52,918 bases of DNA. Origin: Octopus sinensis. Its lineage: Eukaryota. The stretch covers positions 1-52,918 of the forward strand of contig NW_021833921.1 of the NCBI RefSeq assembly GCF_006345805.1, written 5' to 3'. Position 1 is the first letter of the stretch. Each line of letters begins with the position of its first letter. Both the position numbers and the translations under genes were made by a program. Shown in pieces: positions 15,858-52,918 of the stretch. A model generated the notes under the pieces. It made no database searches. It saw nothing but the letters and a program-made list of their open reading frames with translations, and was not told where the DNA came from.

Positions 15858-16360
15858 TATGATTTTTTTCTTTTAACTTTCTCAACACATCGAAACAAAT
15901 AAATGTACATAATACGACACATATATAATAGAAATGTTTAAATAAATACTTACATAGTAATAGATATGGAGAGAAAGAGTGAACGAGGAAGATGTGAGAA
16001 CTGGAGTCAGAGTGGACAACGACAGCTTCAAGAGAATTTCTAGGTTTCTACAACAAACGTTAATTAATATTTTTCAGGTCCACATAATCGTAAATGCTGT
16101 ATCTGTTTGTTTAGACAGTTAATTACCAATTATTTGTATATATTTGATTGGATTTTCTCTTAAATATCAGTTGTCAAGAGGAACTGATCAAACAATCAAG
16201 GTGCGTGAGAAACAAGAACAAGAAATACACTTAATGAGGAAGAGTTTTTACAATGAAGAACGGGAACTAACTCCAGTCTTCAAAGAATTGCGGCTCTACT
16301 TTAATAGATTTTGGATTTTGTGAAAGAGATTTCTTCAATATTCGGCTTCATCACTGTTAT
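15858..16360. repeat. Segmental duplicate of 26146-26646 and 52408-52912 (ZNF upstream region), fused to the Gypsy LTR end
   Basis: Near-identical ~500 bp (TTTTAACTTTCTCAACACATCGAAAC...CAATATTCGGCTTC) present three times in the same orientation. Confidence 0.92.
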
Positions 16361-16861
16361 GTGTTGTTTCGTTCTAATGGGATAGACAACTTAATACGAA
16401 GCATAGTTATTCTTTTACGTGTTTATTTACTTTTTCATGTTACAAGAACTGGACTACATTCAGCACAGCGACACTTATATAACTCTAGACACAGCGTAGT
16501 AATACTTATAAAATAGTGCCAAAAGCGGGGAAGCATTCCACGCACGCACGCCCACGCATATATATGAATGTGTAACATCCCTTCTTCTTGAAAAAAGGGT
16601 TCTTTTGGCAATGAAGACAAATATAGTAGTCTTCCTTACTCTAATGGATTGTCAGCGTGAGGTGGCACTCCTGCAGCAGAAACCATGAGATTATTCTGCC
16701 TCTGCTTTGTAATCGAGCAGAATTAGTTACTTATCTTTTCATTATTTTTCTTCTTTTCTTTTGAAAAAACTTTATCATGAACAAAAAGAGAAAATATTTT
16801 TTCTTTAACGGTATCGAACCGGTGGCAGGATGTTCTTTTTCCATCTGGTTGATCTTGTGCT

Positions 16862-19051
16862 TCACACCGGTGTCTGAGGTGTGTTGTTGGGCTGCTGATG
16901 GGTGGTTGGTGCCCATTGGGATGATGATTCTGTGGGTGTTGTCACTGATGCAGTAGGTGTTGTACTCGTTGTCTGCTGATGGGTGGTTGTTACATTTATA
17001 ATGTGGTGGACCTTTATGCTTAGTCCTTCCATCTCCTGTTTATCATGTGAGGATAGTCTGGAAAGAACATCCGCCAATATCAGGTCTTTTCCTGGCTTGT
17101 ACCTGATATCATAGTCGTAGGTTTGAAGCCGTAACAGTAATCTTTGCAGTCTGGCTGGTGCTTTTGTCAGGTTCTTTCTATGTATTTGTTCTAGCGGTCG
17201 ATGGTCTGTTTCAATATTGAAATATCTTCCATACAGGTATGTATGGAACTTTTCACATCCATATACTACTGCCAGGAGTTCCCTTTCAATATTTCCGTAC
17301 ATTGTCTCTGTGGGCGAGAGAGCTTTCGAGGCATATGCAATGGGCTTACCTTCCTGTATCAGTGCTGCGCCAACTCCTCTCATAGAAGCATCGACTTGGA
17401 GTGTTACTGCTTTGCGTCTGTCATAGTATTGCAGAGTTGTCTCCTTACTGATGAGCTTTTTGATTGCTTTGAAATCCTGTGTGTGTGAAGCACACCAATC
17501 AAACTCTACGTCATCTTTGTTTAGTTCTCGGAGATGTGCAGTGTGATCGGCCAGCTTGGGCATGAAGGCTCCCATGTTGTGAATGAGTCCTAGGAAGCTC
17601 CTGAGTTCCTTCTTGTCTTTAGGTTCTTTGATGTCTCTGATGGCTTCCACTTTAGTGGGGTCTGGTTTCACTCCCTCTGCAGAGTATATAATTCCAAAGA
17701 ATTTGCACTCCTTTGCTTTGATCACACACTTGTCTGCATTGAGTTTGATGCCTGCTTGTCGGGTTTTCTCCATAGCTTCATGTAAATTGAAGTCATGTGT
17801 GGTCTCATCCTTGCCATGCACTTGGATGTCATCTGCTATTCCAATTGCTCCCTTGCAGCCTTGGTAGGTCTCATATATTTGGCACTGGTAAACATCTTGG
17901 CTCACCTTCAATCCAAATGGGAGTCGGTTGAATCGATATCTGCCAAATGGTGTGTTGAAGGTAGTGAGCATGGATGACTCTTTGTCTATCTTTACATTCC
18001 AGTACCCATTACTGGCATCCAGTTTGCGGAATAATTTGGACCCAGTCAATGATGGTGGGATTTCTTCAAGGGTTCGAATTGGATGGTACTCTCTTTTTAA
18101 TGCCTTGTTCAGGTCCCTTGGGTCGAGGCATATCTGTAGGCTACCATTGGGTTTTTCTTTGATTACAATTGAATTCACCCTGTCTGTTGGTTGTGTCACT
18201 TTGGTGATTATTTCTTTTTTTTCCATTCTGTCCAACTCTGTCTTCAGCTTCTCTTTTAGTTCTAGAGGGACGCGGCGAGGTGGGTGAACAATTGGTTTGA
18301 TATTGGGGTCGACTGTTATATGGTATCTACATTTCACAAAGCACCCGACTGTATCGTCAAAGCATTCAGGGTACATGCTTATCAGTTCTTCTTTGTTTGT
18401 GATTGGTGGTCGGTCTTTGATAGGCATATCTCTGTCAATCCTGCTCGGAGTTGCCTTCACTTCAACATTGATTGACACAATATTTAGCTTTTTGCAGGTA
18501 TTGAGTCCAAGAATTGCTTGACCTTCTGTTGTTGTGACATAAAAAGAACACTTGATTGTTTTTCCTTTGTGTGTCCCTGTGATTGTTGTTTTGCCCAGTT
18601 GTGGAATCCTGGTACCTCCGTACGCAGTGAGGATTACATCATTTGGTGTGAGGACTCCTTCTTTGATTTTATCCTCTCGTGTCATGTGTTCTGGGAACAC
18701 CTTTTTGTAGAGGTTGACAGGCAAGATATCACTCTGGGCTCCAGTCTCAATCTTCAGCCTTAAGTCAATGTTTATTCGTTTCTTGCCAGACTTCTTTTGT
18801 ATTCTTATTGTTGTGTATGCCTCATTTTTTTTCTTGTCGCCATTTCCCATCTCATGCACATTTATTGTGCCGACTGCCAAGAATTCCTCCTCTGAGGTGT
18901 TTTGTTCCTGTAGTTGTGCATGTATATCTCTTTGTCTTCTCTTTGAAAATTGGGGCTTGTATTTCTGGGATTTTGCCAACCTACACATTTTTTCCCAGTG
19001 GTTAGGTTTTCCACATGCTTTGCAGTGTGTACCGAATGCAGGACATTTCAT
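16862..19051 (-). pseudogene. Gypsy zinc knuckle-protease-RT-RNase H polyprotein remnant
   Basis: 729-aa ORF with a CKACGKPNHWEKMC knuckle. The protease motif reads ETGAQ instead of DTGA. It ends in a Thr/Pro/Gln-rich tail. Confidence 0.88.
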
Positions 19052-19149
19052 CCGGTTATCGAACTCATGCTCTGTACCACAGTACTGGCATGTTCTTTGT
19101 TTGCGGGTATGTTTCGTCCTGTGCCTAGATACAATATCTACACTGCTGC

Positions 19150-19710
19150 CTAGTGAGCTTGTTTGTAAGGTGAGGCCATTTGTTTGGTAGTGGCTTCGAA
19201 TGTTCTTGCAGTGTCTACTGCTTCTATCAACTGGAGAGCGTCCATACCTATGAGGGATTTCTGAACTTCTTTATGAGCACACCCCCATATTAATTGATCA
19301 ACAATTCTTTTGTCCTTATCTTTGAATTTGCATTTTTCGGCAATGTTCTTTAGTCTGGACAGGAAATTGTCACTCGTTTCTTGTGGGTCTTGTTTCAGGA
19401 TCTGGAATTCGAATCTGTGAATTCTATGGTTCGATCTGGGCTCTAGGTGCCTTTCAAATTTCTCTAAAAGTGTGTCTGGGTTATTGCAATCCGATTCTGA
19501 CATGTCCCAGCTATTGAATTGGTCTAGGCCCTTCTCTCCCGTCCATAAAAGAATGTAGCTCACCTTTTCATCTTCAGTCGTGCCTTTCAGGAAACTTTTG
19601 AAAGCTAGTTGAGTTTTCTGTTTGAATTTCTTAAACGCTTCCACGATATCATCGGAGTCCCAGTTCATGTTTGGATGTAGATTCATCTGTACGGTGACGG
19701 GGGTCGCCAT
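19150..19710 (-). pseudogene. Gypsy gag capsid region (frameshifted from pol by a 4-bp deletion at ~19170)
   Basis: MATPVTVQ... is colinear with the uninterrupted ORF 34872-36395. Copy B reads GCCTCACTTACCTTACAA and copy A reads GCCTCACCTTACAA. Confidence 0.88.
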
Positions 19711-20519
19711 TTTTGATTCTCGTGTATGTGTGTCCGAAGACGAAGCGATGTTTTGTTTGTTAATTTCTGGTTCGTTGTTTCTGTTTTGTTGTAAAGGCAC
19801 AGTTTCCGATTAATCATTTACCGCTGCCACCATGTTATGTGTTGTATCCTTCTAATGGGATAAACAACCAATATGAAGCCATTGTTATTCTTTTACGTGT
19901 TTATTTACTTTTTCATGTTACACAAACTGGACTACATTCAGCGTAGTGATACATATATACTTTAGACACAGTTCGTACTGTTACTAACAAAATAGTGCCA
20001 AAAGTGCGGATGTATTCTACATACATATACCTGCATATACACATAGATATGAATGTGTAACACTGTGGTTTAAAGTTTGATCTTTCTTACCCATTTAGAA
20101 AACAATATTTGGAAGCTGTCATTTTGTTCATGTAAAAAAAGGGGTGTGAAATATCAAATTATTGTGATTTTGTACTTTTTATACAGAAATTCATACGATT
20201 CTGCAATACGTGACATAAAAAACTTTGTTCAATTAAAAACAAATTACTTTTAACTATGCACTGTCCATCACTATTTCCTCCACCACAACCATCATCTCTC
20301 TATCTCTGTGCCTTAAATCTCACCATCAGAACATCACCACTCTGCTAAAATTATATTGCTAACTTCTCTATATCATCAACTTCAACTAACGTTTTTAACG
20401 ATGTAATAAATATTATATGTATCCCCTATCACATATTATGTACACTTCTCTCTGTCCCTCTTTCTATCTTATTCTAATATATGGGTGCTTGAAACACTCA
20501 GATAAGAATTGCTAGGACC

Positions 20520-20872
20520 AGTATTCCATTTGGGATATGCTTTTGAAATGGAAAGAAGCATGCCCTTCTTTGGAAACGAATTGTGACTGAAGATGAAAAA
20601 TGGATTGCATGCTTAATGTTGTGCAAAACTGATCCTGGAGTTTGAAGAAATATCCCCCAAGCAACCAAAGATGAATATCCATGGCAACACACCTGTGCTT
20701 TGTGGGATCATAAAGGCATTGTTTATTACGACCTTCCCCATAAAACCAAACCATTAATTCTGATGTGTTCTGTCATCAACTGGCTAATTTGAACCAAAAT
20801 ATATCAAAGAACTGCGGCTGGAGATTACCAACAGAAAAGCATTAGTCTTCCAACAGGACAATGCCCGACCAT
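20520..20872 (+). mobile_element. mariner transposase relic (copies at 33697-34062 minus and 45981-46333 plus)
   Basis: KRIVT(E/G)DEKWI at ~20575-20610, WDHKGIVYYDL, TINSDVFC and LVFQQDNARP. These are the mariner D,D34D-family motifs. Confidence 0.82.
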
Positions 20873-22960
20873 TGTCAAAAAGAAAGGATTCACCCTATCT
20901 CCCTCATATTCCCTATAGTCTTCATTGTTATCATTTTTATGTCGTATGTTTTTTAAACCAATATTCTTTCACCAGATGCATTCTTAATTGAATTCTTTTC
21001 TTTTTGCTTTGCATCTTGTACAGATTTAAGTCTTTAATTTTATAAATATATATTTATATAATCTTTTAGCTGTTTATCCATTATCCAAAAACAAATGGTC
21101 CCGGTCACTAGTCATGGCCTCGGTGTCTAGTGAGGCAATGTATTGGGTTATTCCTGAAACCAAAACACTCTAAAGTGGAGCCTGTATTGTGTCTGCATCA
21201 AAAGATAGTCGCTCATCTGCTACTCACTGAAAACTGAAGGAAATTGGATTACGGTAATTACTTAATACACTTTATGCACAATTTTAGACACAGCACTCAT
21301 AAAATAAATATTCGCTCATATTTTTCCAGTTTTCTCATGAACAGAAAAAAATTACATTTTAAAATTTACATGGGCACAATTTCTTGTATACTAAAACAAA
21401 TACCTTATATGTAAAATATAGGGGTCAGAATTTAATGTAACTTTGCTTACTCTGAAAACCACATCAGTGGTAACTTGTAAGCCAAGGTGATGGGTCAGAG
21501 AGCCAATACACATTTCAATTTGTAGGTGTTGTAAAAAAAACTTTGTTCAAGTAAAAAAAACATTACTTTTCACTCTGTATTCACCATCACAACCACCACC
21601 ATCATGTCTCTCTCTACCTTTCTTTAATCTCTCCATCAGAACATTACCCACCTTCTAAAATTATATTCCTAACTCTCCTCTATATCTCAACCTTCAACTA
21701 AATATGTCCCCCTATCACGTCATGCACGCTTCTCTCTCTTCCCGTCTCACTCATGGCCTTATCCTTTCTCTCCAATCACATGAAAGTGTTACTGACGACC
21801 TAAGTAATGTAATGACAAGCAGAATTATTATAAGACCACCTTCCTTTACTTTCCCCCCCCCTCACCCCACTACTCTAACTAACATAAATACACAAGTTGA
21901 ACAAAGAAGCTTGTGATTACATATATACACGTACATTATTTTTGTGGGAGGTTTGGATAATATTTTTTGCAAGGTTATTACAAATCACACAAGGAGACCG
22001 GAGAAAAGTTTGATATTATTTATTCAGCATTACATGTGTTTCATTTCCTAATAGGAATCAAAATATTTTACATGTGTAGAAAACATGTAAGATATTTCCT
22101 ATAAGAAATTCTTCAGACATACATGTGTCTGTATGTGTGTGTACCCTTGTCCAGATATTATGTGATGTTCGTAAAGGGCCATCATGACCGTCATACTTGT
22201 GCAGTTGTTCACTTCCAGTCTTCTGTGTAAAATATGTCTCACCAGGGAAAATATTTCCTTGCTTGGAAACAGGTGAGGATTGGTCACAAGAAAGGTACCC
22301 AGATGTAGAAAATCTGCATCAATGAATTCCATCTAATCCACAGAAGCAAGAATAGGAGAATGTTAAATGATGAGGATCATCATCATCGTGGTTCCTCTTC
22401 TGTATCAATGCATTTACATTTCAATAATTGATCATTTTCATAGATTGATTTAGCACAAATAGCTAAGGCTACAGTTATATCTTTCATATTAATAGGACTG
22501 TACAAACAATTCACCATTTTGAAAGAATGATTCAGGTTTAACATCACAGTGATAGGTTTTCCTTCCTCTGTCAATGCTCTTTTGATTCAATAATGGATGA
22601 TTTCATGTCAAAGATTTACCATAGATGTTCATATAGTTTCTATATTCTGTGGATGTCTTTATGAGATACGTCCTTTGTCCTTCTGAGGAAATGTTGTACA
22701 ACAAATATCACTGTGTTATGGACCCACTTCATAAGGAAAGACTTCTGTTTAAATCAGAAATGATTTTGTGTAAATGATTTGCCACAGATATCACTGTGAA
22801 TTGATTTTTCTTGAGTGTGAATGCATTTGTGTATAGCTAAGTGACTGTTTCCAGAGAACATCTTACCATAGATATCACAGGGTTTCTACCCTGTATGAAT
22901 ACGGTTGTGGTGAGTTAAGCCACTGTTCTGAGAGAAAGGTTTACCACAGATATTACAAGG

Positions 22961-23830
22961 TTATGGTTCCGCCCCTGTATGAATATGCTTGTGTCTAGTT
23001 AAGCTACGGCTTTCAGAGAATGATGTACCACAGATATCACAGGTATATGGTTTCTCACCTGTATGAATCCATTTGTGAGTAGTTAAGCTACCGCTATAAG
23101 AGAATGATCTTCCACAGATATCACAGGAATATGGTTTCTCTTTTGTATGGATACTTTTGTGTTGAGTTAAGCCACTGTCCTGAGAGAATGACTTACCACA
23201 GATATCACAGTGATATGGTTTCTCCCCAGTATGAATACGTTTGTGTTTCGATAAGCTACCGCCACTACATAATGATTTACCACAGATATCACAGTTATAT
23301 GTTTTGTCAACTGTATGAATACGTATGTGAAGAGCTAAGCTATGATAACGAGAGAATGATTTACCACAGACTTGACAGCAATATGGTTTCTCCCCTGTAT
23401 GAATACCTTTGTGTCGAGTTAAGCTACTGCCATCAGAGAATGATTTACCACAGATATCACATTGATATGGTTTCTCCCCTGTATGAATACGCTTGTGTTT
23501 GGTTAAGCTACTGCCATCAGAGAATGATTTACTACAGATATCACAGTGATATGGTTTCTGCCCTGTATGGACTTGTTTGTGAATAGCTAAGCTTTGAGCA
23601 TGAGAGAATGATTTACCACAGATACTACAGTGATATGGCTTCTCCCCTGTATGAATACGTTTGTGACGAGCAAAGCTACTCCTGTCAGACAATGATTTAC
23701 CACAGACAGTACAGTGATATGGTGCTTCCCCTTCATGAATTTGTTTGTGTTGATTGAATTTACTTTCTTCTAAGAATGATTCTTTGCAGATGTCACAGTC
23801 ATATGATGATTTTGTTAATTCTTCCGACAT
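22961..23830 (-). CDS. C2H2 zinc-finger protein A (289 aa, 10 tandem fingers, no effector domain)
   Basis: Uninterrupted ORF from ATG ([15 protein letters not shown]) with TGEKPY linkers. Decayed fingers continue beyond the TAA to ~22750. Confidence 0.85.
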
Positions 23831-24254
23831 CTCTTCAAGAAAAATGAAATCAATCCTTCAAGTTGTACAGATCAACAACTTTTCAATAATATTTTTCCTC
23901 TCACCAAAATTTATGGATATTTTGCTTCTTTTGGCTTTTATAGTTTATTCCAAACAAATATCACTTCTCTTATATTTCTTCTAAATGTGGTCAATGCCAA
24001 TACTAAAAAATGTCACAAATACTGTTTCAAAATCTATCAAAGTATATTTAAAAGAGAAAATTATCTCTTGCACATTTCAGAAGTAAAGAAATGCTTTCTC
24101 TCTCAGAGGAAATATTTTACTGTAATTCAGCAATGTTTTCTAGAAGCAGGATTATACGTTTGTAGAATATCTTTGCAGAGTCTTTCAAACATGATACATA
24201 TTGATGATTCTTTAAAAGTAAAAAATACTTTTTAGCCAATTTCACGTGATTTTT

Positions 24255-24285
24255 CTGAAAGAATAGAAAAAATAATATAAGACAT
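24255..24285 (-). other. Putative 3' splice acceptor of the ZNF coding exon (also at ~42077 and ~49738)
   Basis: Minus strand TTATATTATTTTTTCTATTCTTTCAG|AAAATCAC is conserved in three paralogues, ~260-425 bp upstream of the start codon. Confidence 0.6.
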
Positions 24286-24482
24286 CAAGTATGTTTAAAA
24301 GGCAGATATTCAAAACTGCAAATTTACGACATTTCTGTTTTCATAAATTGTAGAAGTAATTCTTTATTTGAACCATTAAATTTATCCAATTTCTGCATTA
24401 CCAAAATGTTTATAAATCTAATATACCAACTCCTGGAATATAAAGTCTGTCATAGACACACTTCCACACACACACCAATATA

Positions 24483-24859
24483 CACTTGCGTCAGAAATTA
24501 ATTAGCACTTCTCAAATTTCTACATTAAATAGGTTAAATCAATTGACCTATGAGCTGTTCAAAACGTCTTACGCGATGAGAAACCTTAGTATGGTGTGAT
24601 TTCGGTCCTTGCGAGGCGCTACCTATATCTATTAAACAAAGGAAGATTTGTCTGCATCCGCACTCCAAGTTGTTGCACTGCTATGTCAACATCATAACGC
24701 TGTAGACTCTCAAACTGCTCTGCAAACAAAGTTACGTCATCGTTCTGCGCAACAGTGAACTCGCAACAAAGCAATAGTTCGAGATATGGCCACTAGGTGA
24801 CAGCACATACCTTGAGTGAAGAGCAAATCAAGGGTGCTAATTAATTTCTGACGGTAGTG
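24483..24859. mobile_element. Tc1/mariner-type MITE, 377 bp, 26-bp TIRs, TA target duplication
   Basis: TA-CACTTGCGTCAGAAATTAATTAGCAC ... GTGCTAATTAATTTCTGACGGTAGTG-TA. The paralogous empty site CAATA-TA-CATATAAATGACAC is at 49921-49941. Confidence 0.92.
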
Positions 24860-24947
24860 TACATATAAATGACACTAGATTTCTGATGTTTTCATTGCAG
24901 TCTTGTATCTTTGTTTGCTAAAACAGACATCGCTCTTTCTCTACCTT

Positions 24948-25245
24948 CATCATCATCGTTTAACATCTGCTTTCCACGCTGGCATGGGTTGTGAGGTTTG
25001 ACTGAGGACTGGCAAGCCATGAGGCTGAACAAGGTTTCAATCTTATCAGGCAAGATTTCTACAGCTGGATGCTGTTTGAGCGTGTAGCAGTTGCCTTTCA
25101 TGTGCCACAGAGCCAGTCAGGTAGTATTGGCATCGACCATGCCTGAATGGTGCTTTGTATGTGCCACCGGCATGGGTGCAAGTCAGGCAGCACTAGCATC
25201 AATCATGCTCGAATGGTACTTTTTACATGCCACTTGCATGGGAGC
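24948..25245 (-). mobile_element. Old RTE 3'-UTR fragment or RTE-related SINE (copy at 50014-50312)
   Basis: (CAT)nCGTTTAAC tail, TTTCTACAGCTGGATGC and GTGCCACCGGCA modules, all inverse of the RTE 3' UTRs at 3.2-3.6 kb and 32.7-33.1 kb. Confidence 0.7.
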
Positions 25246-26799
25246 CATATATACAAATACACACACACACACATATATATATATATACGGTTAGCTCAAC
25301 GTTAATATTTAGGTGAGCATAAAAGATGAATAAATGTCAGTAAATAATATTGATGTCTCACTAACAGCATCAAAATCCTTAGTGGGGTAATTTTAATGTA
25401 GGAAAAATTATTGGTTGATGTGGAGAATGAAAGCCAGATTCCTCCAAAGAGTTTGGCGCGTCCTGAAGAAGGCAACGTGATGTTGCTTGCCATTTCTTTC
25501 TGGGGGATGGCCTGGTCTATGTCTCCCCTCTTCCTGCAAGCCCAGAGGAACTTAAGCAGAGAATTATTACCATACTGGTCGTGAGATGTGCGAAAAATAA
25601 CAGCTAAATAGCTCATAAATCGCAGTTGATTTTTTTCTTTTTTTGGTTGCATGACCGAACGAATTCTCGAACGCAAAAATTTCTGAAAATTCCCCCAAAT
25701 AAAAATATGTGACGAGGGATTATATTAGGTGCTTAAAGCAACACTCAACACACAAAAATTAAATAAATTAGAAAACCATATTAGTTCTAACTTTTAATGA
25801 TGCAGAAGAACCACCAGAAATAAAGACTTCCTATGTCTCAAATAAAAGCTGTTCCATTTCCTCTCGAAACGATATTTGCTTTTCGTTTCAGTATTTCAAG
25901 TGCACACTCGTATTTTTATACATTCCCCATTTCTTACTAATTACGTCGTAATTTTCTCGTATTTAACGAAATTGTCAAATTTACACGTTAGAAAGAAAGA
26001 TAAATGTTATCTAAACAAGGGATTGATCCGACGTTTTTACAAATAATTTAGAAAATAACCAAAAGTGCAATGAAATGTCTAAAAGAAAACGACAACACAA
26101 TGAAAGTATTAAAATTACAGCCTTTCGTATAATTTCGTCTTAGTGAGATTTTTTTTCCTTTTAACTTTCTCAACACATCGAAACAAATAATGTACATAAT
26201 ACGACACATATATAATAGAAATGTTTAAATAAATACTTACATAGTAATAGATATGGAGAGAAATAGTGAAGGAGGAAGATGTGAGAACTGGAGTCAGAGT
26301 GGACAACGACAGCTTCAAGAGAATTTCTAGTTTTCTACAACAAACGTTAATTAATATTTTTCAGGTCCACATAATCGTAAATGCTGTATCTGTTTGTTTA
26401 GACAGTTAATTACCAATCATTTGTATATATTTGATTGGATTTTCTCTTAAATATCAGTTGTCAAGTGGAACTGATCAAACAATCAAGGTGCATGAGAAAC
26501 AAGAACAAGAAATACACTTAATGAGGAAGAGTTTTGGCAATGAACAAAGGGAACTAACTCCAGTCTTCAAAGAATTGCGGCTCTACTTTAATAGATTTGG
26601 TATTTTGTGAAAGAGATTTCTTCAATATTCGGCTTCGTCACTGTTATTGTTATTATCATCAACCCTTTTCCGATCTTTTCCGTTTTGCTGCTATGTGTGG
26701 AAATGTTCGAGTGTAGTGAAAATTTCAGTATTTCAGGAATCTTATAATTTTCCAGCTGAATTCCACGAGTTCGCTTTGATGCTGCTGTCTAAGATTCAT

Positions 26800-26866
26800 T
26801 GCACATGCGCAGAATGGAGTTACTTCCGGTTGCGCACCGGAAGTCTTCCTTATGCACATGTGCGGG
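26800..26866. promoter_or_regulatory. Candidate bidirectional core promoter: inverted ETS pair flanked by NRF1-like motifs
   Basis: ACTTCCGGT-TGCGC-ACCGGAAGT (26822-26844), TGCACATGCGCA (26800-26811) and TGCACATGTGCG (26853-26864). It lies in a CpG-richer island between divergent ZNF genes A and B. Confidence 0.62.
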
Positions 26867-27659
26867 AAAGTGAACCCTAAAACGCGGTTCGCTCCCTCAT
26901 CTTTTCTGGCTCTTGCAGCACCCGGTGATGGACGTGTATTGGCAGTCTCTCTGAGGACTTCTCACCAACCAAGCAGCGAACCCGACAAATCGTTCGACTA
27001 ACAAACAAGAAAGCGAGCAACCAGTGCTGCAGATTCGGCTGTCGGTTTCCCGCCACAGAACACGTGCACCAGTTCTACATTACGACCAGAAATAAACAAC
27101 CGTTTTGCTGTGTTCGTAGATCGCCTGACTTTTCTGTTATTTTAGCTAAAATTGACTGTGACGGGATCAGATCGGACACCCCTCCAGTGATACCGAAACT
27201 GATCCTGTTGCAATATACATCCTTGTATGTTGGCATTATTACCCGGGAACGGAATCGAAAAAACAAAATAAATGGAACTGGTGTAAAAAAAAAAAGAGGG
27301 TAGGGAACGAATCTGAGAACAAAAAGGCCCGGAAAGCAACGGGGGTGGGGAGAGACCTTCGGAACATTCACAAGATCCGACGTTTTTTTCACATAACTTT
27401 AAAATGGGTTTTTATAAATGAAATTTTATATAAATACCTTTCAGACGGTATAGATTAGGATTATAAAGAAATTTGTGGGGAAAATCTTTTCCGAGGGGGT
27501 GTGGAGAGGACGTCGGATGATTCCCTCGTAACTTTGAGAAAAATATAATCCTTTTAATGTTATAAAGTAGGATTTTCGTCATGAACTTCGATGCTAAACA
27601 TCCCTTTGAAGGGTTCAGGTCTTTACTTCTACCGAGTTTATATATATTATATATATGAA

Positions 27660-27742
27660 ATACTTAGAAGTATTTTGTCTATCTTTACGTTTTCAGTTCA
27701 AATTCCGCCAAGGTCGATTTTACCCTTCATCCTTTCGGGGTG
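27660..27742 (+). mobile_element. SINE fragment at the breakpoint of the inverted duplication
   Basis: GTTCAAATTCCGCCAAGGTCGATTTTACCCTTCATCCTTTCGGGGT joins directly to GAGAGGAGAAATAT (ZNF 5' region). Confidence 0.65.
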
Positions 27743-27813: not shown

Positions 27814-28672
<859 letters not shown>

Positions 28673-29814: not shown

Positions 29815-32800
29815 GGAACACTGACGGGGTTGGTGGCGTGGGTATACTTATCGCTGAGAAATGGGTAGATAAAGTAATTGAGGTAATCAGAGTATGTGAC
29901 AATACTTAAGATTAGATTAGTGCTTCATCATGGATTAGCAACCATGATATCGGCCTATGCTCCTCAGCCGGGGTTACCTGATGGACAGAAAGACCGATTC
30001 TATGACACTCTGTTGCAGACTACCTCGTTGACGAATGACAGACCTTCTCTTTGTGGCTGGTGACTTCAATAGTCACATTGGACGACATGCTGGGGGCTTC
30101 CATGGCGTACATGGAGGCTATGGCTATGGTTCCCGCAACGAGGAGGGAACCAGGCTGCTGGAGTTCCGCGATGCAAATAATCTTATGATTTGCAATACTA
30201 ACTTCAGGAAACCTACCAGCCACCTAGTCACCTACCGATCGGGCCAACATACCAGCCAAATTGACTACATCCTTGCCAGGCAAAGGGAGAGATGGCTACT
30301 TATAAATGCCAAAACCTTCCCAGGCGAAGAATGTACCCCACAACATAGACTGGTAGTTAGTGACTTTAGGATCAGGACTAAGAGGACGACCAACATGGAG
30401 AAGAAGGATCTTGAAGCGTAGAGATCCTACGAATGGACAGAGATTTAGGGACATGCTACTTGAAGCTTTTGACGAAGTAGAAGGGGATAGAGTCCCCTCT
30501 CGTCCCAAAGTAACGTGGTGGTGGAACAGTGTTGTAGACAGGGCTATTAGAGAAAAGAGACAGACTTAGAAGGACTGGAAGAATGGTGGTAGCAGGGAAT
30601 TGTATCAGACTGCTAAAAGGGAAGCTAGGAGACAGGTCTATCTAGCCAGAGGGGAAGCAGATAAGAAAAAATTTGCCAATGTTCTGTGCCGTGACGACCA
30701 AGGACTGGAGGTGTTTTGCGTTACAAGACAGTGTGTGAGAGAGAATTGTGATGTGGTAGGAGAGAAGTGTGTTCGCATGGTAGATGTTTCACTTGCGCTA
30801 AATGAGGATGCAAAGAGAGAGGTTTGGAGACGCCACTATGAAAGATTGCTGAATAAAGAAAATGAATGGGATAAAGAGAGTCTGCCGAATGTTGACCCAA
30901 CAGAGGGACCAGCTATCAGAGTTGATAGTTCCTTGGTAGTTAAGGCAATTAGAGGCATGAAGACAGGGAAAGCCCCAGGCCCATCAGGTATCACTGCAGA
31001 GATGCTCAAAATATCTGGTAGTGTCGGCTATAGCCTAGTCACCCATATAGTTAATCAGGTGATACACGAAGGAGTCATACCCAATGACTGGTGTAGCAGC
31101 ATAATAGTCAACTGTTACAAAGGTAAGGGTGACGCCCTAGATACAAATTATTACAGAGGTATCAAGCTGTTGGATCAGGTGATGAAGGTTACAGAGAGGG
31201 TCATAACCCAACTAATTAGAGAGAGAGTTAGTTTAGATGAGATGCAGTTTGGGTTCGTGCCAGGGAAAAGTACCACTGATGCTATATTCCTGGTAAGGCA
31301 GCTGCAGGAGAAATACCTAGCCAAAGATAAGCCCCTGTACCTGGTTTTCGTTGACATGGAGAAAGCCTTTGACAGGGTCCCCCGATACCTCATCTGGTGG
31401 TCAATGAGGAAACTAGGGATAGATGAATGGTTAGTGAGAGCTGTGCAAGCCATGTACAGGGACGCTGCTAGTAAGGTGAGGGTTGGCAACGAGTACAGTG
31501 AAGAATTCCGGGTAGAGGTAGGGGTCCACCAAGGCTCAGTCCTCAGCCCCCTCCTATTTATCATAGTCCTACAGGCAATAACGGAGGAATTCAAGACAGG
31601 ATGCCCCTGGGAGCTCCTCTATGCTGGTGACCTTGCTCTAATTGCTGAGTCACTATCAGAACTGGAGGAGAAGTTTCAGGTGTGGAAGCAAGGTTTAGAA
31701 TCGAAGGGCCTTAGAGTCAATCTAGCTAAAACCAAAGTCGTAATAAGTAGGAAGGTAGACAAATCACAAATGCCTTCAGGTAGATGGCCCTGCTCGATTT
31801 GTAGAAAAGGTGTAGGTAGAAACTCTATAAGATGCACCAAGTGTAATTTATGGACACATAGGAGGTGCAGCAATGTCAAAGGAAGGCTAACTAGGAAGAT
31901 GGTTTTTGTATGTGGCAGATGCTCGGGAGCATTAACCTCTGAAAATCTGCAGAAAACAACTTCCGTCACTTTTCAGGGGGAAAAACTAGAAGTAGTTGAT
32001 AGCTTCCGTTATCTTGGTGACCAAGTCAGTAGTGGGGGTGGGTGGGCTGAAAGTGTAACGGCTAGAGTAAGAATAGCCTTGGCAAAGATTAGGGAGCTCT
32101 TACCTCTGCTGGTGACTAAAGGCCTCTCGCTCAGAGTAAAAGGCAGACTGTATGATGCATGTGTATGAACAGCCATGCTACATGGGCCGTGACTGCTGAG
32201 GACATGCGTAAGCTCGCAAGAAATGAAGCCAATATGCGCCGATGGATGTGTAATGTCAGTGTGCATGCTCGACAGAGCGTTAGTACCTTGAGAGAAAAGT
32301 TGGACCTAAGAAGCATCAGTTGTGGTGTGCAAGAGAGACGATTGCGCTGGTATGGTCATGTGGCGAGAATGGATGAAGATAGGTGTGTGAAAAAGTGCCA
32401 ATCCCTAGCAGTGGAGGGAACCCATGGAAGAGGTAGACCCAGGAAAACTTGAGACAAGGTGGTGAAGCACGACCTTCGAACTTTAGGCCTCACTGAGGAA
32501 ATGACCAGCGACCGAGACCTTTGGAAATATGCTGTGCATGAAAAGACCAGGCAGGACAAGTGAGCCCAGCCCACTTATGCATGCCTTTCCTCCCTTGGAC
32601 ACACAAAGACCTGTTGAGGCAAGTGAAGTCGATATCGAACCTCATCCGATGACAGGCACCTATGCCAACCCCCCTTTGCTTGCGAAGACCTGTTGGGGCA
32701 AGTGAAATCGAAATTGAACCAATCCTATGATTGGCACCCGGCAGATGCCAGGAACCCTGGACTGGAGATACGTAAAAAGCACTACCTGAATCGTGGCCAA

Positions 32801-33148
32801 AGCCAGTGCCGCCTCGACTGGCTTCCGTGTCAGTGGCACGTAAAAAGCACCATCCGAATCATGGCCGAAGCCAGTGCCGCCTCGACTGGCTTCCGTGCAG
32901 GTGGCACGTAAAATGCACCAATCCGACCATGGCCGATGCCAGCCTCGCCTGGTACCAGTGCAGGTGGCACGTAAAAAGCACCCACTACACTCATGGAGTG
33001 GTTGGCATTAGGAAGGGCATCCAGCTGTAGAAACTTTGCCAGATAAAACCGGAGCCTGGTGCAGCCTTTTGGCTTCCCAGATCCCCGGTCGAACCATCCA
33101 ACCCGTGCTAGCATGGATAACGCACGTTAAACGATTATGATGATGATG
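29815..33148 (+). mobile_element. RTE-clade LINE, copy 2 (5'-truncated, inactivated) inserted in the 3' flank of ZNF B
   Basis: Colinear with 268-3060. ORF 30600-32168 has YAGD instead of YADD. It has a (GAT)n tail and is absent from the paralogous sites at ~21400 and ~46880. Confidence 0.93.
32770..32990 (+). repeat. ~62-bp tandem modules in the RTE 3' UTR
   Basis: About 4 units of (GGTGGC)ACGTAAAAAGCACC..GAATCATGGCCGAAGCCAGTGCCGCCTCGACTGGCTTCCGTG. Confidence 0.8.
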
Positions 33149-36945: not shown

Positions 36946-37131
36946 CATATCTATCGTAATAACACCTCCTGGACATTGCGTCTGTCCTAGACACACACCA
37001 ATATACATGTCAATGACACTAGATATCTGATGGTTTCACCTCAGTCACGTGTCGTATTAACACAGCTTCTTTTGTTAACATAGACATCACTCCTCCTCTG
37101 CCTCCTTCTGTACATTTGTAAATACACAAGA

Positions 37132-38270
37132 AAGAAACTATATGAATGTGATATCAATGGTAAGCCTTTCATTTAAAATGATCCATTAACGAATCAAAAG
37201 AGCATTGACAGAGGAAGGAAAACATATCACTGTGATAGCAGTGCTTAATCATTTTATCAAAATGGAGAATTATACAGTCATATTAATATGAAAGATAAAG
37301 CATACCCTAAGACATTTGTGCTAAATCAATCTATGAAAATGATCAATTATTAAAACATAACTGCATTCATACAGAAGAGGAACCATATCACTACAATGAT
37401 GATAATCATCATCATTTAAAATTCGCTTTTCCATGCATCTGTCTATCTGATGGAATTCATTGATGGAGATTTTCCTGAGCTGGGTACCCTTTCTTGTCAC
37501 CAATCCTCACCTGTTTCCAAACAAGGAAATATTTTCCCTGGTGAGACATATTTTACGCAGAGGACTGGAAATGAAGAACTGCACAAGTATAACGGTCATG
37601 ATGGCCATTTACGGACATCACATAATATCTGGACACACACACACACATGTATATATGAAGAATTTCTTATAAGAGATATTTTACATATTTTCTCTTTGTC
37701 TAAAAGTTTGTAATTCCTATTAGGAAATGAAACACATGTAATGCTGAATAAATTCTATCAAACTGTTTTCCAGTCTCCTTATGTGATATGTAATTACTCT
37801 GCAAAAAATATTATCCAAACCTCAGACAAAAATAATATTTATGTATATATATAATAACCAGCTGTTATGCTTTCATCAGATTAGTGGAATAAATGAGGGG
37901 TGGGGACAGAAGTGGAGAAAAGGGAGGGAGAAATAGAGTAAGGTGATCTTATAATAATTCTGCTTCTCATTCTGTTACTTAGCTCGTCAGTAACACTTTC
38001 ACGTTATTAGAGAAAAGGGGGGTAGAGAGAGAAAAGATGATAAGACAAAGAGTGAGGCAAATAGAGAAAGAAAGAAAAGGGAGAGACAAAAATACTAAGA
38101 AAGAAGCAAGCATGACATGTGATGGGGGGAATGTAATAGTTATTTTATGTTTAAAAGAGCTAGCTGAAGTTTGTGATATAGAGAATAGTTAGAAATATAA
38201 TCTTAGCAGAGGGGTGATGTTCTGATGTTGATATTAAAGAAAGGCACAGAAAGAGAGAGATGATGGTGGT
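37132..38270 (+). repeat. Orphan, more diverged copy of the ZNF 3' flank without coding fingers
   Basis: Colinear with 28925-29720 (GAAACTATATGAATGTGA..., GAATCAAAAGAGCATTGACAGAGGAAGG..., ATTCCTATTAGGAAATGAAACACATG). Confidence 0.8.
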
Positions 38271-41510: not shown

Positions 41511-41552
41511 GCGACAGGCTTTAAAGAAAGCATCGTTCAGTCTTCCTCCTGA

Positions 41553-41820
41553 AGTGATATGGTTTCTCCCCTGTATGAATTAGTTTGTTTTTAGTTAAGC
41601 TATAGTTTTCAGGGAAAGATTTACCATAGATATCACATTGATATGGTTTCTCCCCTGTATGAATATGCTCGTGTGCAATCAAGTTTCTTGCAGAAGAGAA
41701 TGATTTCCCACAGATATCACAGGAATAAAGTTTCTCCACTGTATGAATTCGTTTGTGTTCATTGAATTTACTTTCTTCTGAGAAGTCATGTGAGGATTGT
41801 CCTAATTCTTCTGTCATCAC
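41553..41820 (-). pseudogene. Truncated C2H2 zinc-finger gene E
   Basis: [41 protein letters not shown]..., breaking off after TGEKPYH. Upstream 41820-42350 is homologous to 23830-24480. Confidence 0.8.
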
Positions 41821-42394
41821 TTCAGAAAAAATATAATCAATCGAAGAATATTTCTTCTCTCACCAAAATTTATGGATATTTTTCTTCTTTTTGCTTTTAT
41901 AGTTTATTCCAAACAAATATCACTTCTCTTATATTTCTTCTAAATGTGATCAATATGTTTTATAGAAGCAGGATTATACGTTTGTAGAATATCTTTGCAG
42001 AGTCTTTCAAACATGAGACATATTGATGATTCTTTAAAAGTAAAAAATACTTTTTAGCCAATTTCATGTGATTTTCTGAAAGAATAGAAAAAAATAATAT
42101 AAGACATAGAATAGGTTTAAAAGGTAGATATTAAAAAATGCGAATTTATGCCATTTCTGTTTTAATGGATTGTAGAAGTTAACCTGCATTCAAACTAATA
42201 AACTTACCCAAAAGTTAATAAATTACGAGCAGATTCAATAATTATAATTGCAACTCCTGGACATTAAATCTGTGACACACACGCTCTTTCTCTCTCTCTC
42301 ACACACACCAATATAGATGTTAATGGCCTAGATAACCAATGTTTTCACCTCGGAGTTCTATCTTGTCAACACAGCTTTGTTTAGTAACACAGAT

Positions 42395-42685
42395 GTGGAG
42401 GCACATGGCCTAGTGGTTAGAGCAGCCGACTCATAGTCGAGGGATCACAGGTTCAAATCTCAGACCGAGCAATGTGTGTGTTTATGAGTGAAACACCTAA
42501 GCTCCACGCGGCTCCGGCAGAAGGTAATGGCGAACTTCTGCTGACTCTTTCGCCACAACCTTCTCTCACTCTTTCCTCCTGCATCTTGCAACTCACCTGC
42601 GACGGACTGGCGTCCCGTCCAGGTGGGGAACCTATACGCCAAGGAAACTGGCCCTTATGAGCCAGGCATGGCTCGAGAAGGAACA
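42395..42685 (+). mobile_element. Full-length tRNA-derived SINE (third family) with 12-bp TSD
   Basis: A box TGGCCTAGTGG and B box GGTTCAAATC. AGTAACACAGAT is duplicated at 42383-42394 and 42686-42697. Confidence 0.9.
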
Positions 42686-42699
42686 AGTAACACAGATAT

Positions 42700-43050
42700 C
42701 ACACCTGTTTTGCCACCTGAATAGGCAGGTGCATTGTCACTCCCTGGAGGCATCGAATTGTGGCCCTTTCCAATGAATAGCATCCCGCAAACATCACAGT
42801 AGAACTCCTGGTTTACTATCTGACCAGGTGGAGCATACTCATGATGAACAATCCCCTGGAATTGAAGAAAACGGTCAACAGTGTCTTGACATTTGTCAGT
42901 CTTGGAGAGGTCGAGGTTTTCAACTTCAAAGACTGAACCTTTAGGGGAAAATTGCTGTTCGCTTGAAGCATTGCACACTGTTCGTAAAAATAATGCATTG
43001 AATGGCACAAGAACGGATTATAATAACCTTTGTAATTCAATCATCCATAG
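42700..43050 (-). mobile_element. Second mariner transposase relic
   Basis: KTLLTVFFNSRG / GIVHHEYAPPGQIVNQEFYCDV / DNAPAYS on the minus strand. Confidence 0.75.
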
Positions 43051-43134
43051 TCTGATATAATATTTCAGAATATAAAAATCCCTTCTTCAGATATCCCTGG
43101 GAATTGATCGAGTCACTGCTATAATCGGTTTTCC

Positions 43135-44500
<1,366 letters not shown>

Positions 44501-44840
44501 TGATTTAAACAGAAGTCTTTCCTTATGAAGTGGGTCCATAACACAGTGATATTTGTTGTACAACATTTCTTCAGAAGGACAAAGGACGTATCTCATAAAG
44601 ACATCCACAGAATATAGAAACTATATGAATGTGACATCTATAGTAAATCTTTGACATGAAATCATCCATTATTGAATCAAAAGAGCATTGACAGAGGAAG
44701 GAAAACATATCACTGTGATGTTAAACCTGAATCATTCTTTCAAAATGGTGAATTGTTTGTACACAGTCCTATTAATATGAAAGATATAACTGTAACCTAA
44801 GCTATTCGTGCTTAATCAATCTACGAAAATGGATCAATTA

Positions 44841-45523
44841 TCTTGTGGGTCATTTCAGGATCTGGAATTCGAATCTGTGAATTCTATGGTTCTATCTGGG
44901 CTCTAGGTGCCTTTCAAATTTCTCTAAAAGTGTGTCTGGGTTATTGCAATACGATTCTGACATGTCCCAGCTATTGAATAAGTCTATGCCTTTTTCTCCC
45001 GTCCATAAAAGGATATAGGTTACCTTTTCATCTTCAGTCGTGCCTTTCAGGAAACTTTTGAAAGCTAGTTGAGTTTTCTGTTTAAATTTCTTAAACGCTT
45101 CCGCGATATCATCGGAGTCCCAGTTCATGGTCGGATGTAGATTCATCTGTACGGTGACGGGGGTCGCAATTTTTGATTCTCGTGTATGTGTGTCCGAAGA
45201 CGAAGCGATGTTTTGTTTGTTAATTTCTGGTTCGTTGTGTTTCTGTTTTGTTGTAAAGGCACAGTTTCCGATTAATTATTTACCGCTGCCACCATGTTAT
45301 GTGTTGTATCCTTCTAATGGGATAGACAACTCAATACGAGCCATTGTTATTCTTTTACGTGTTTATTTACTTTTCATGTTACACAAACTGGACTACATTC
45401 AGCGTAGTGATACATATATACTTTAGACATAGTTCGTACTGTTACTAACAAAATAGTGCCAAAAGTGCGGATGTATTCTACATACATATACCTGCGTATA
45501 CACATAGATATGAATGTGTAACA
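44841..45523 (-). mobile_element. Gypsy copy C: 5' LTR (45295-45523), PBS and 5' part of gag
   Basis: Colinear with 19379-20062. The gag ATG is mutated to TTG and there is a premature stop at 44892. Confidence 0.9.
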
Positions 45524-48198: not shown

Positions 48199-49315
<1,117 letters not shown>

Positions 49316-50539: not shown

Positions 50540-50645
50540 AGGCAACGTGATGTTGAAATGGCCGCTACGTTCACCTGAGCTGACACCTTGCCATTTCTTT
50601 CTCAGGGAGGGCCTAGTCTATATCTCTCCTCTTCCTGCTACAACC
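50540..50645 (+). mobile_element. Tc1-like transposase relic (deleted copy at ~25465-25560)
   Basis: WPLRSPELTPCHFFL resembles the Tc1-family WPxRSPDLxPxDFFLWG motif. Confidence 0.6.
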
Positions 50646-51068
50646 ATACTGGTCATGAGATGTGCGAAAAATAACAGCTAAATAGCTCATAAATCGCAGT
50701 TGATTCTTTTCTTTTTTTGGTTGCATGACCGAACGAATTCTCGTTCACAAAAATTTCTGAAAATTCCCCCAAATAAAAATATGTGACAAGGGATTATATT
50801 AGGTGCTTAAAGCAGCACTCCACACACACACACAAAATTAAATAAATTAGAAAAATATATTAATTCTAACTTTTAATGATGCAGAAGAACCACCAGAAAT
50901 AAAGACTTACTACGTCTCAAATAAGAGCCGTTTCATTTCCTCTCGATACGATATTTGCTTTTCGTTTCAGTATTTCAAGTGCACACTCGTATTTTTATAC
51001 ATTCCCCATTTCTTACTAATTGCATCGTAATTTTCCCACATTTAACGAAATTGTCGAATTTACAACAG

Positions 51069-52335
51069 TTCTTCACTTTTTCCAGAATCTCTTCTCTTTA
51101 TTATTTTTTTTTTTTTGCGAAATATGTACAAAAATACGGAGTTTATGATTCATGTGTGAGTGTGTGTTCTTGATACTCGTTTAGAACAAGTAGTTTTACA
51201 CCATTACACTATTTTTTCTTAGTTTAAAGGCCGTGGACTGAAGATGTGAAATTTCCGAAGCCTCTCCCCCCCCCCCTTTCGCGAGCGCGCATTTTTTTCA
51301 TGATAGTCGTTTAGAGCAAGTTGTTTTACACCTATTACGCTGTTTTTGTTTTTGTTTTTGTGCCCGGTTCAGACGCTTTCGGAAATTCCCGATATAAATT
51401 TTCCGAGGCCTCTCCCCCACCCCTCTTTCGCGAGAGCGCATTTTTTTTTACACATATTACACTATTTTTTTTTTGTTTTGGTGCCCGGGTCAGCTCCTCA
51501 GACGCTTTCGGAACTTCCCGATGTGAATTTTCCGAGGCCTCTCCCCCACCCCCCTTTCGCGTGCGCGAATTTTTTTTTTTCATATTCGTTCATAGGAAGT
51601 TGTTTTACACCTATTACACACATTTTTTTTTTTATTTTCTGATAATCGTAACGCCCTATATTAACCAATTTCTGTAGTATTTCAAGATGTTTCTGACACG
51701 TATTTTGATTCACATGGCGGAGATCCAACATTTCTTCACTTTTTCCAGAATTTCTTCTCTTTATTATTTTTTTTGCGAAATACGGAGTTTATGATTCATG
51801 TGTGAGTGTGTGTTCTTGATACTCGTTTAGAACAAGTAGTTTTACACCAATTACACTATTTTTTCTTAGTTTAAAGGCCGTGGACTGAAGATGTGTAATT
51901 TCCGAAGCCTCTCCCCCACCCCCCTTTCGCGAGCGCGCATTTTTTTCGTGATAGTCGTTTAGAGCAAGTTGTTTTACACCTATTACGCTGTTTTTGTTTT
52001 TGTGCCCGGTTCAGACGCTTTCGGAAATTCCCGATATAAATATTCCGAGGCCTCTCCCCCACCCCTCTTTCGCGAGAGCGCATTTTTTTTTGTCATATTC
52101 GTTTAGAGCAAGTTGTTTTACACATATTACACTATTTTTTTTTTGTTTTGGTGCCCGGGTCAGCTCCTCAGACGCTTTCGGAACTTCCCGATGTAAATTT
52201 TCCGAGGCCTCTCCCCCACCCCCCTTTCGCGTGCGCGAATTTTTTTTTTCATATTCGTTCATAGGAAGTTGTTTTACACCTATTACACACATTTTTTTTT
52301 TGATTTTCTGATATTTGTTACGCCCTATATTAACC
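51069..52335. repeat. Higher-order tandem repeat: two ~600-bp units (51069-51666, 51732-52335), each with three ~140-bp subunits
   Basis: The core TTCCGAGGCCTCTCCCCCACCCCCTTTCGCG(A/T)G(C/A)GCG occurs six times (~51253, 51401, 51530, 51900, 52043, 52200). Confidence 0.92.
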
Positions 52336-52918
52336 GAAATGTCTAAAAGAAAACGACAACACAATGAAAGTATTAAAATATCAGCCTTTCGTATAATTTT
52401 GTCTTAGTGAGATTTTTTTCCTTTTAACTTTCTCAACACATCGAAACAAATAAATGTACATAATACGACACATATATAATAGAAATGTTTAAATAAATAC
52501 TTACATAGTAATAGATATGGAGAGAAAGAGTGAAGGAGGAAGATGTGAGAACTGGAGTCAGAGTGGACAACGACAGCTTCAAGAGAATTTCTAGATTTCT
52601 ACAACAAACGTTAATTAATATTTTTCAGGTCCACATAATCGTAAAGGCTGTATCTGTTTGTTTAGACAGTTAATTACCAATCATTTGTATATATTTGATT
52701 GGATTTTCTCTTAAATATCAGTTGTCAAGTGGAACTGATCAAACAATCAAGGTGCATGAGAAACAAGAACAAGAAATACAATTAATGAGGAAGAGTTTTG
52801 GCAATGAACAAAGGGAGTTAACTCCAGTCTTCAAAGAATTGCGGCTCTACTTTAATAGATTTGGTATTTTGTGAAAGAGATTTCTTCAATATTCGGCTTC
52901 GTCACTGTTATTGTTATT

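What the first reader, a model, noticed from the sequence alone, without database searches (positions are those of the whole stretch)
16355..52918. A ZNF gene + Gypsy LTR/gag cassette is the unit of amplification of this zinc-finger cluster
Seen: the same ordered cassette (ZNF exon, decayed-finger 3' flank, mariner relic, Gypsy 5' LTR, tRNA-Leu PBS, gag/pol, with ZNF and Gypsy co-oriented) occurs three times. A is 16355-26646 (-), B is 27739-36945 (+) and C is 44841-52918 (-). In each copy the downstream breakpoint lies in or at the Gypsy element (LTR tip 16355, RT 36945, gag 44841). Known: C2H2-ZNF clusters are greatly expanded in coleoid cephalopods, and in vertebrates KRAB-ZNF clusters co-evolve with and repress LTR elements. 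Inference: the retroelement acts as recombination substrate for ZNF birth here, and the locus could be a KRAB-independent ZNF/TE co-evolving module.
Basis: partly seen in the sequence, partly recalled or inferred. Interest (0 to 1): 0.72.

Follow-up and report, generated by a model that had tools for sequence, protein, structure and literature searches.

The report
Jumping gene riding zinc-finger duplications
In what is likely an octopus genome, about two dozen copies of a zinc-finger gene repeat carry a broken jumping gene right at the front of the next zinc-finger gene; it was most likely copied along as a passenger after several separate insertions at that one spot, and it likely took part in a few flips, much as reported for mouse zinc-finger clusters.

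Summary
The window is an unplaced contig from a ZNF cluster on C28. I found 25 Gypsy-bearing copies of the unit and 4 empty ones; 60 of 79 listed C28 paralogs have no Gypsy nearby. The Gypsy sits at exon 1 of the next ZNF gene. Position 16355 is that integration joint, not a duplication breakpoint: 16 of 22 sense copies run on into the next gene. The B and C ends are one-base-overlap joints to non-Gypsy DNA. The repeats bounding the unit are ZNF 5' regions, so the Gypsy is most likely a passenger. New and unexpected: three LTR subfamilies end cleanly within about 200 bp of this promoter, two of them on opposite strands of the same 5 bp (GTGAT). Type I cassette elements are hybrids (LTRs 84-89% alike, flanks unmatched), and two cassette pairs are joined, inverted, through a hybrid element, so some retroelement-mediated recombination is likely. 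This parallels mouse KRAB-ZNF clusters (PMC12575710), here without KRAB. No evidence that the fingers bind the element. The scan's index held no look-alike of this junction.

The parts
15861..16354 (-). Exon 1 (16354-15954) and start of intron 1 of the next ZNF gene, cut at 15861 (true end of block A)
   Evidence: 96.6% to 26151-26654; splice donor seen in sequence; cut shown
16350..16354 (-). 5-bp target GTGAT, single in empty units; abuts the 3' LTR end
16355..16577 (-). 3' LTR of A, beta subfamily, TG...CA
16578..16590 (-). Polypurine tract
   Evidence: sequence; same in dispersed copies
16800..19832 (-). Gypsy internal region: gag, protease region, RT, RNase H; broken reading frame; about 1.1 kb missing near 16974-16983
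19821..19832 (-). Primer-binding site complementary to tRNA-Leu 3' end
19833..20062 (-). 5' LTR of A, alpha subfamily, preceded by CACAG; 84.6% to A's own 3' LTR
20461..20900 (+). Mariner-type transposase relic
   Evidence: weak Pfam PF01359 in two frames; motifs
21400..22960 (-). Decayed fingers and 3' flank of gene A
22961..23830 (-). ZNF A ORF, 289 aa, 10 C2H2 fingers, no KRAB hit
24254..26241 (-). Intron 1 boundaries of gene A (exon 2 starts 24254, exon 1 ends 26241)
   Evidence: sequence; joint 24253-26241 in one contig of run X15, RNA by guess, paralog not resolved
26241..26860 (-). Non-coding exon 1 and promoter-like region of gene A, without an LTR; ETS- and NRF1-like motifs (motifs recalled)
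26072..27741 (-). 1.67 kb block 99.6% identical to C's upstream region; joined to B's intron at 27739-27741 with a 3-base overlap
27814..28437 (+). ZNF B ORF, 207 aa, frameshifted; further fingers follow out of frame
29815..33150 (+). RTE-type LINE inserted in cassette B (also in A' on C28)
34517..34746 (+). 5' LTR of B, alpha subfamily
34747..36945 (+). Gypsy gag-pol of B, cut in RT and joined to reversed ZNF intron with a 1-base overlap
37124..38270 (+). ZNF 3' flank fragment E, no Gypsy
41553..42315 (-). ZNF 5' fragment F, no Gypsy
43108..44841 (+). ZNF fragment D, no Gypsy; its flank is fused to C's gag
44841..45294 (-). gag stump of C, inverted non-homologous joint at 44841, 1-base overlap
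45295..45523 (-). 5' LTR of C, alpha subfamily
48374..49315 (-). ZNF C ORF, 313 aa, 11 fingers; first six fingers match A
52336..52918 (-). Exon 1 of C; the window ends at the contig end and C9084 continues into an LTR-free promoter

Best explanation
The repeat is a two-gene unit (zinc-finger gene 1, 3' flank, mariner relic, then promoter and exon 1 of gene 2) that carries Gypsy sequence at the front of gene 2 in 25 of 29 copies found, and it likely multiplied by unequal exchange between the look-alike 5' regions of the two zinc-finger genes, with the Gypsy likely a passenger that later served as a secondary recombination substrate. Shown: empty units with a single GTGAT; one shared 3' joint in 16 copies; direct repeats of exon 1 on both sides of the element; three LTR subfamilies at the site; hybrid elements; mosaic identity across host and Gypsy parts alike. 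Inferred order: (1) the gene pair with its mariner relic formed and began to duplicate; (2) a beta element integrated at GTGAT, its 5' end imperfectly or later rearranged (Type II: about 70 b of target repeated, first 26 LTR bases lost); (3) alpha and gamma elements integrated at the same promoter stretch; (4) recombination between these elements made alpha/beta hybrids (A, B, C, A', C28:4325, C2 array), a solo LTR and two inverted cassette pairs; (5) non-homologous breaks cut B, C, Z and C2:203.05 inside the element.
For: Empty units 4 of 4 with a single GTGAT. 16 of 22 sense Gypsy copies read through the same LTR/GTGAT joint into gene 2; 4 end at non-homologous joints and 2 at inverted hybrid joins (my tally). 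The first unit of the C2 array has no LTR before it. 60 of 79 listed C28 ZNF starts have no LTR within 8-9 kb. The newest window joint and the A/C exchange lie in ZNF intron/exon 1. Four-gamete incompatibility is 0.35-0.45 in host DNA and 0.28-0.49 in the Gypsy, 10 copies. LTR pairs: Type I 83.8-89.1% (4 pairs), Type II 91.1-95.8% (5), dispersed 95.4-99.1% (6). Dispersed copies have exact 5-bp duplications in 21 of 25 loci with both ends visible (3 with one mismatch, 1 ambiguous); the 8 two-LTR Type I cassettes have CACAG versus GTGAT. 41 of 78 LTR-end matches lie in cassettes (35 of 72 after removing redundant contigs).
Against: Within the mariner-linked sub-lineage, filled units outnumber empty ones 25 to 4, which a Gypsy-driven boost could also explain. 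Gypsy incompatibility is slightly higher than host at distances over 100 b (0.45-0.49 versus 0.35-0.45), and B switches nearest neighbour inside gag (A' to Z). The host tree is mostly unresolved (6 of 22 inner branches starred), so the order of events is not shown. The gamma assignment rests on 132 b (support 99/87). Only part of the C28 cluster was fetched, and 31 of 131 ZNF starts were not listed. Block A and its two joints are found only in the window and one near-identical contig.
Confidence: 0.68

Rival explanations
1. The Gypsy is the main recombination substrate that creates new ZNF copies.
For: Hybrid LTR pairs and unmatched flanks; two inverted pairs joined through beta/gamma elements; one solo LTR; 25 of 29 units filled; B changes partner inside gag.
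Against: No array seen starts with an LTR; the B, C, Z and C2:203.05 ends are non-homologous; 60 of 79 paralogs are unlinked; host DNA is about as mosaic.
Confidence: 0.17
2. The promoter site is a true integration hot spot set by a bound factor or chromatin; a beta/gamma double insertion at one 5-bp target made an unstable head-to-head pair that seeded the inversions.
For: Three subfamilies end at clean TG/CA termini within about 200 b; two 3' ends are staggered by exactly the family's 5 b. Random expectation is 2e-4 insertions per 100 events in 25 such sites. The matching 5'-side joints were not found at this site. This is compatible with the best explanation rather than exclusive of it.
Against: 0 of 37 dispersed loci lie by ZNF promoter or exon sequence. 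All C28 LTR ends listed lie in this one sub-lineage. Empty sites end in ATAACA or ATAATA like the LTR end, so the beta 3' joint could be a microhomology joint. Capture through homology to the resident element is an alternative.
Confidence: 0.3
3. The linked ZNF proteins recognise and repress the linked element, and the pair is co-selected.
For: A and C are intact; predicted octopus ZNF motifs are enriched in TE libraries (PMC10547256, section 6).
Against: Finger arrays of Gypsy-linked genes differ widely by eye; B and A' are truncated (207 and 67 aa); no KRAB or other effector domain was found. A trans-acting repressor needs no physical linkage (inference).
Confidence: 0.07
4. The three-copy layout is partly an assembly artefact: block A is mis-joined to B.
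For: 27739-52918 is 99.9% identical to C28, where B has a different left side and then a gap; the 1.67 kb upstream of A is 99.6% C's; no listed contig piece bridges 27741 or 15861.
Against: C9084 carries the same joints; the joint has a 3-base overlap typical of end joining; A differs by 2-6% from every other copy compared, so it is a real paralog or allele. The B and C ends are in three assembled sequences.
Confidence: 0.15

Closest known systems
Young mouse KRAB-ZNF clusters expanded with ERVs (Bruno et al. 2025, PMC12575710, passages; review PMC13709654, passages)
   Same: Retroelements multiplied by segmental duplication with ZNF genes; chimeric elements as recombination scars; inversions.
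   Different: Invertebrate, no KRAB domain, a Gypsy-type element with no env seen, a fixed position at exon 1 of the next gene, and no binding data.
Double insertion of TEs at one target (McGurk and Barbash 2018, PMC5932611, passages)
   Same: Two LTR elements at one target site, including an inverted Rover pair with the motif at the joint.
   Different: Here the pair itself is not seen, only the two outer 3' ends in different copies, and they belong to different subfamilies.
mdg4/gypsy insertion bias at OVO-bound promoters (PMC12919034, abstract)
   Same: Repeated Gypsy insertion into a transcription-factor gene's promoter.
   Different: No tethering factor is known here; dispersed copies show no ZNF-promoter bias.
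Aberrant retroviral integration with host duplications, deletions and inversions (PMC5041404, abstract)
   Same: Type II joint: one clean end, one truncated end, about 70 b of target repeated.
   Different: That work is drug- or mutant-induced HIV in culture; a later rearrangement explains Type II equally well.
Coleoid C2H2 expansions (PMC9068888, passages; PMC10547256, passages and section 6; PMC12988792, passages)
   Same: Large clusters of finger-only genes; a proposed link to TE control.
   Different: The passages read describe no Gypsy-linked duplication unit.

Membership tests
Ty3/Gypsy LTR retrotransposon | TG...CA LTRs, PBS, polypurine tract | tested here: met
Ty3/Gypsy LTR retrotransposon | RT followed by RNase H | tested here: met
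   Pfam RVT_1, RT_RNaseH
Ty3/Gypsy LTR retrotransposon | Integrase downstream of RNase H | tested here: inconclusive
   A lacks about 1.1 kb present at that position in dispersed copies; I did not scan that segment for the domain
Ty3/Gypsy LTR retrotransposon | RT phylogeny within Gypsy rather than BEL or Copia | not tested
   Assigned from domain order and motifs only
Single intact proviral-type insertion (copy A) | Near-identical LTRs and matching target-site duplication | tested here: not met
   84.6% LTRs; CACAG versus GTGAT
KRAB-ZNF gene | KRAB domain | tested here: not met
   Only finger families among the hits shown; 10-residue N-terminus
KRAB-ZNF gene | Tandem C2H2 array in one exon after a 5' exon | tested here: met
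TE-repressing ZNF | Binds and silences the element | not testable with these tools
   No binding assay; motif prediction is weak by PMC10547256 section 6
LTR-mediated (NAHR) duplication | Homologous element at both ends of the duplicated unit | tested here: not met
   First units of A, C, Z, A' and the C2 array lack an upstream LTR
LTR-mediated (NAHR) rearrangement | Chimeric element at the joint | tested here: met
   10 Type I alpha 5' LTRs, 8 of them paired with a beta 3' LTR; 2 beta/gamma inverted joins; 1 solo LTR
Site-targeted LTR element (Ty3, Tf1, mdg4 type; Ty3 and Tf1 recalled) | Most independent insertions at one class of site | tested here: not met
   0 of 37 dispersed loci near ZNF promoter parts; target 5-mers vary
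Double insertion at one target | Target motif preserved between two elements | tested here: inconclusive
   Outer ends staggered by 5 b; inner joint not found
Tc1/mariner relic | DDD transposase similarity | tested here: inconclusive
   PF01359 below cutoff in two frames

The most novel reading that the evidence does not exclude
One zinc-finger promoter was a base-precise landing site hit by three Gypsy subfamilies; the resulting back-to-back and hybrid elements seeded inversions and a burst of about 25 duplicated units, including an array on another chromosome, and left 16 zinc-finger 5' ends with an LTR in place of their own upstream promoter, so that retroelement activity both multiplied and rewired a KRAB-less defence-type gene family in a mollusc.
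Probability: 0.25. Interest if true: 0.7.

Novelty: new variant of a known kind. Interest (0 to 1): 0.48.

Why it matters
It gives a base-level invertebrate case of the joint expansion of zinc-finger genes and LTR elements described for mouse KRAB-ZNF clusters, and separates the two roles: passenger in most duplications, substrate in a few rearrangements. About half of this family's LTR ends in the genome come from duplication, not transposition, which bears on ZNF-TE copy-number correlations. The empty, alpha, beta and gamma versions of one promoter form a natural series for testing LTR-driven ZNF expression and insertion hot spots.

Tried and rejected
Breakpoint at the LTR tip: rejected, it is the shared integration joint. 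A as one old insertion dated by its LTRs: rejected, the LTRs belong to different subfamilies. Family-wide targeting of ZNF promoters: rejected. The one exact match (C6) is a chance flank beside an unrelated LTR. Crossover between alpha and beta internal regions could not be placed: subfamilies are 92-98% alike inside and mosaic. Read support for the window's own joints: only short Logan contigs were available, no listed piece bridged 15861 or 27741, lists were cut; no verdict. No RNA holder listed on record; four runs, three guessed as RNA and one of unrecorded kind, gave one exon 1-exon 2 joint, and nothing on LTR-started transcripts. A formal count of finger blocks shared by Gypsy-linked genes was not obtained; that statement is by eye. 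No binding-site prediction, fold or complex job was run. g_4814 in the host tree has a long branch caused by an internal deletion and its place is unsure. Literature searches for a cephalopod ZNF-Gypsy unit found none in the listings; subscription papers and all supplements were not seen, and Supplementary Fig. 11 of PMC12575710 may hold closer parallels.
Full report
Setting. The window is the whole unplaced contig C10392 of a 2.72 Gb animal genome. An octopus is inferred from its content and from earlier notes; I did not identify the record. C9084 repeats the window at 99.2-99.99% and runs 7.5 kb further. Window 27739-52918 equals C28:5464763-5489941 at 99.9-100%. On C28, B has its own 5' region and then a gap. 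A 1.26 kb probe from the left block matches at 100% only in the window and C9084.

Observation. The three cassettes exist, at 94-98% identity in most parts. RT and RNase H, the tRNA-Leu primer site and a weak mariner signal were confirmed. A has a second LTR at 16355-16577 and lacks about 1.1 kb found in dispersed copies. A and C encode intact finger-only proteins of 289 and 313 aa; B is frameshifted at 207 aa. No KRAB hit appeared. The segment 26646-26241 is a non-coding exon 1: one contig of a run guessed to be RNA joins 26241 to 24253, in line with note e1-10334538.

What the unit is. Searches with the LTR, the 3' flank and both junctions, followed by mapping of fetched stretches, gave 29 non-redundant units on C28, C27, C2 and unplaced contigs. 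My tally: 10 Type I (A, B, C, A', C28:4325, five on C2), 8 Type II, 3 with an antisense LTR end, 3 with deletions over the 5' joint, 1 with only the 3' part, and 4 empty. All 4 empty units read mariner end, promoter, one GTGAT, exon 1. The element therefore sits at the front of the next ZNF gene.

Breakpoints. Of 22 sense Gypsy copies, 16 pass through the same LTR/GTGAT joint into gene 2, 4 end inside the element (B, C, Z, C2:203.05) and 2 are joined to an inverted cassette. B joins reversed ZNF intron and C joins reversed ZNF flank, each with a 1-base overlap; Z has a few inserted bases. A really ends at 15861 in intron 1 of gene 2. The newest joint, 27739-27741, has a 3-base overlap in ZNF intron and follows 1.67 kb that is 99.6% C's upstream. 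The first unit of the C2 array has no LTR before it.

How much of the cluster. The ZNF start motif has 131 matches, 100 listed, 79 on C28; 19 of these 79 have a family LTR within 9 kb downstream or a sense 3' LTR within 8 kb upstream. Of 78 LTR-end matches, 41 lie in cassettes and 37 are dispersed; removing 6 redundant rows leaves 35 of 72.

Evidence that the element did recombine. LTRs fall into alpha, beta and gamma groups, each with dispersed members. Dispersed loci show exact 5-b duplications in 21 of 25 with both ends visible, and LTR pairs of 95.4-99.1% (6 pairs). Type I cassettes pair an alpha 5' LTR with a beta 3' LTR (83.8-89.1%, 4 pairs measured) between CACAG and GTGAT. At C28:4364-4384 kb and 4808-4818 kb two cassettes face each other across one element whose 3' end is gamma; the first has a beta 5' LTR, the second has lost its 5' LTR. 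One unit has a solo LTR. Exchange is not confined to the element: four-gamete incompatibility in 10 copies is 0.35-0.45 in host DNA (87 sites) and 0.28-0.49 in the Gypsy (92 sites), with homoplasy not separated. Z has an A/B/C-like host flank with a Type II joint.

The unexpected point. Alpha begins cleanly after CACAG; about 190 b on, beta ends cleanly before GTGAT; gamma ends cleanly on the other strand of the same 5 b. Random insertion predicts about 2e-4 hits in 25 such stretches per 100 events. The partner joints were not found at this site. None of 37 dispersed loci lies by ZNF promoter or exon sequence, so this is not family-wide targeting. A local hot spot with a double insertion, whose head-to-head centre was unstable, fits; so does capture of incoming copies through homology to the resident element; and the beta 3' joint could be a 6-base microhomology joint. 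These were not separated.

Co-evolution claim. By eye, finger arrays of Gypsy-linked genes share little beyond the first finger and scattered modules; A and C share six. B and A' are truncated. Binding was not tested. Wells et al. report TE enrichment of predicted octopus motifs and call for experimental validation (PMC10547256, section 6).

Known work. Bruno et al. describe ERV copy gain by segmental duplication and chimeric ERVs at duplication edges in mouse KZFP clusters (PMC12575710, passages). Double insertion (PMC5932611, passages), promoter-biased mdg4 (PMC12919034, abstract) and aberrant integration (PMC5041404, abstract) supply precedents for the parts. PMC12368964 was seen as abstract and outline only and not used. 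Four searches found no cephalopod ZNF-Gypsy unit in their listings. No supplement was read. The scan's index had no look-alike of the junction; the 8 notes shown of 213 on this genome concerned other features.

Verdict. Real structure; passenger first (0.68), secondary substrate likely; a new variant of a known kind; interest 0.48.

Noticed in passing
L070-L076 (C2:195.328-195.394 Mb): Five tandem units of about 13 kb on another chromosome; the element is reduced to two LTRs around about 300 b; finger arrays differ between units (up to 17 fingers, two ORFs cut near 50 aa); ends at an assembly gap.
   Followed up: partly
window 26790-26860: ETS- and NRF1-like motifs (recalled) in a CpG-rich stretch upstream of A and C; this stretch is absent from the gene-2 promoter.
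   Followed up: partly
window 51063-52335: C's intron 1 holds a 1.27 kb nested repeat (157 b period inside a ~660 b duplication) absent from A; a 427 b piece is 99.5% identical at C28:4429501.
   Followed up: no
window 267-3064 and 29815-32568: Two RTE-type LINE copies, 90-93% alike; the second has a weak PHD-finger hit inside the RT ORF, as in note e1-9883115.
   Followed up: partly
window 3639-8496: About 4.8 kb of AT/TA microsatellite in several blocks.
   Followed up: no
L123, L125, L126 and others: Several dispersed copies of this LTR family sit inside (TA)n tracts.
   Followed up: no
L117 (C28:3079585): A cut 3' LTR plus ZNF gene preceded by TTAGGG-like repeats, 1.2 Mb from the main cluster.
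   Followed up: no
window 24485-24859: 375 b insertion in A's intron, absent from other cassettes; high-copy by contig depth; a 99% copy at C2:203048936.
   Followed up: no
window 8634-8963, 10315-10743, 9035-9823: Two older, divergent finger clusters separated by a LINE RT fragment.
   Followed up: no
window 42655-43017 (-): A second mariner-like fragment by eye; no Pfam hit.
   Followed up: partly
G000 C518, C8813, C10399: Arrays of matches to the tRNA-Leu 3' end (17, 15 and 8 copies).
   Followed up: no
whole window: The assembly holds the B-C block three times (C10392, C9084, C28), so ZNF counts from it are inflated by redundant contigs.
   Followed up: yes
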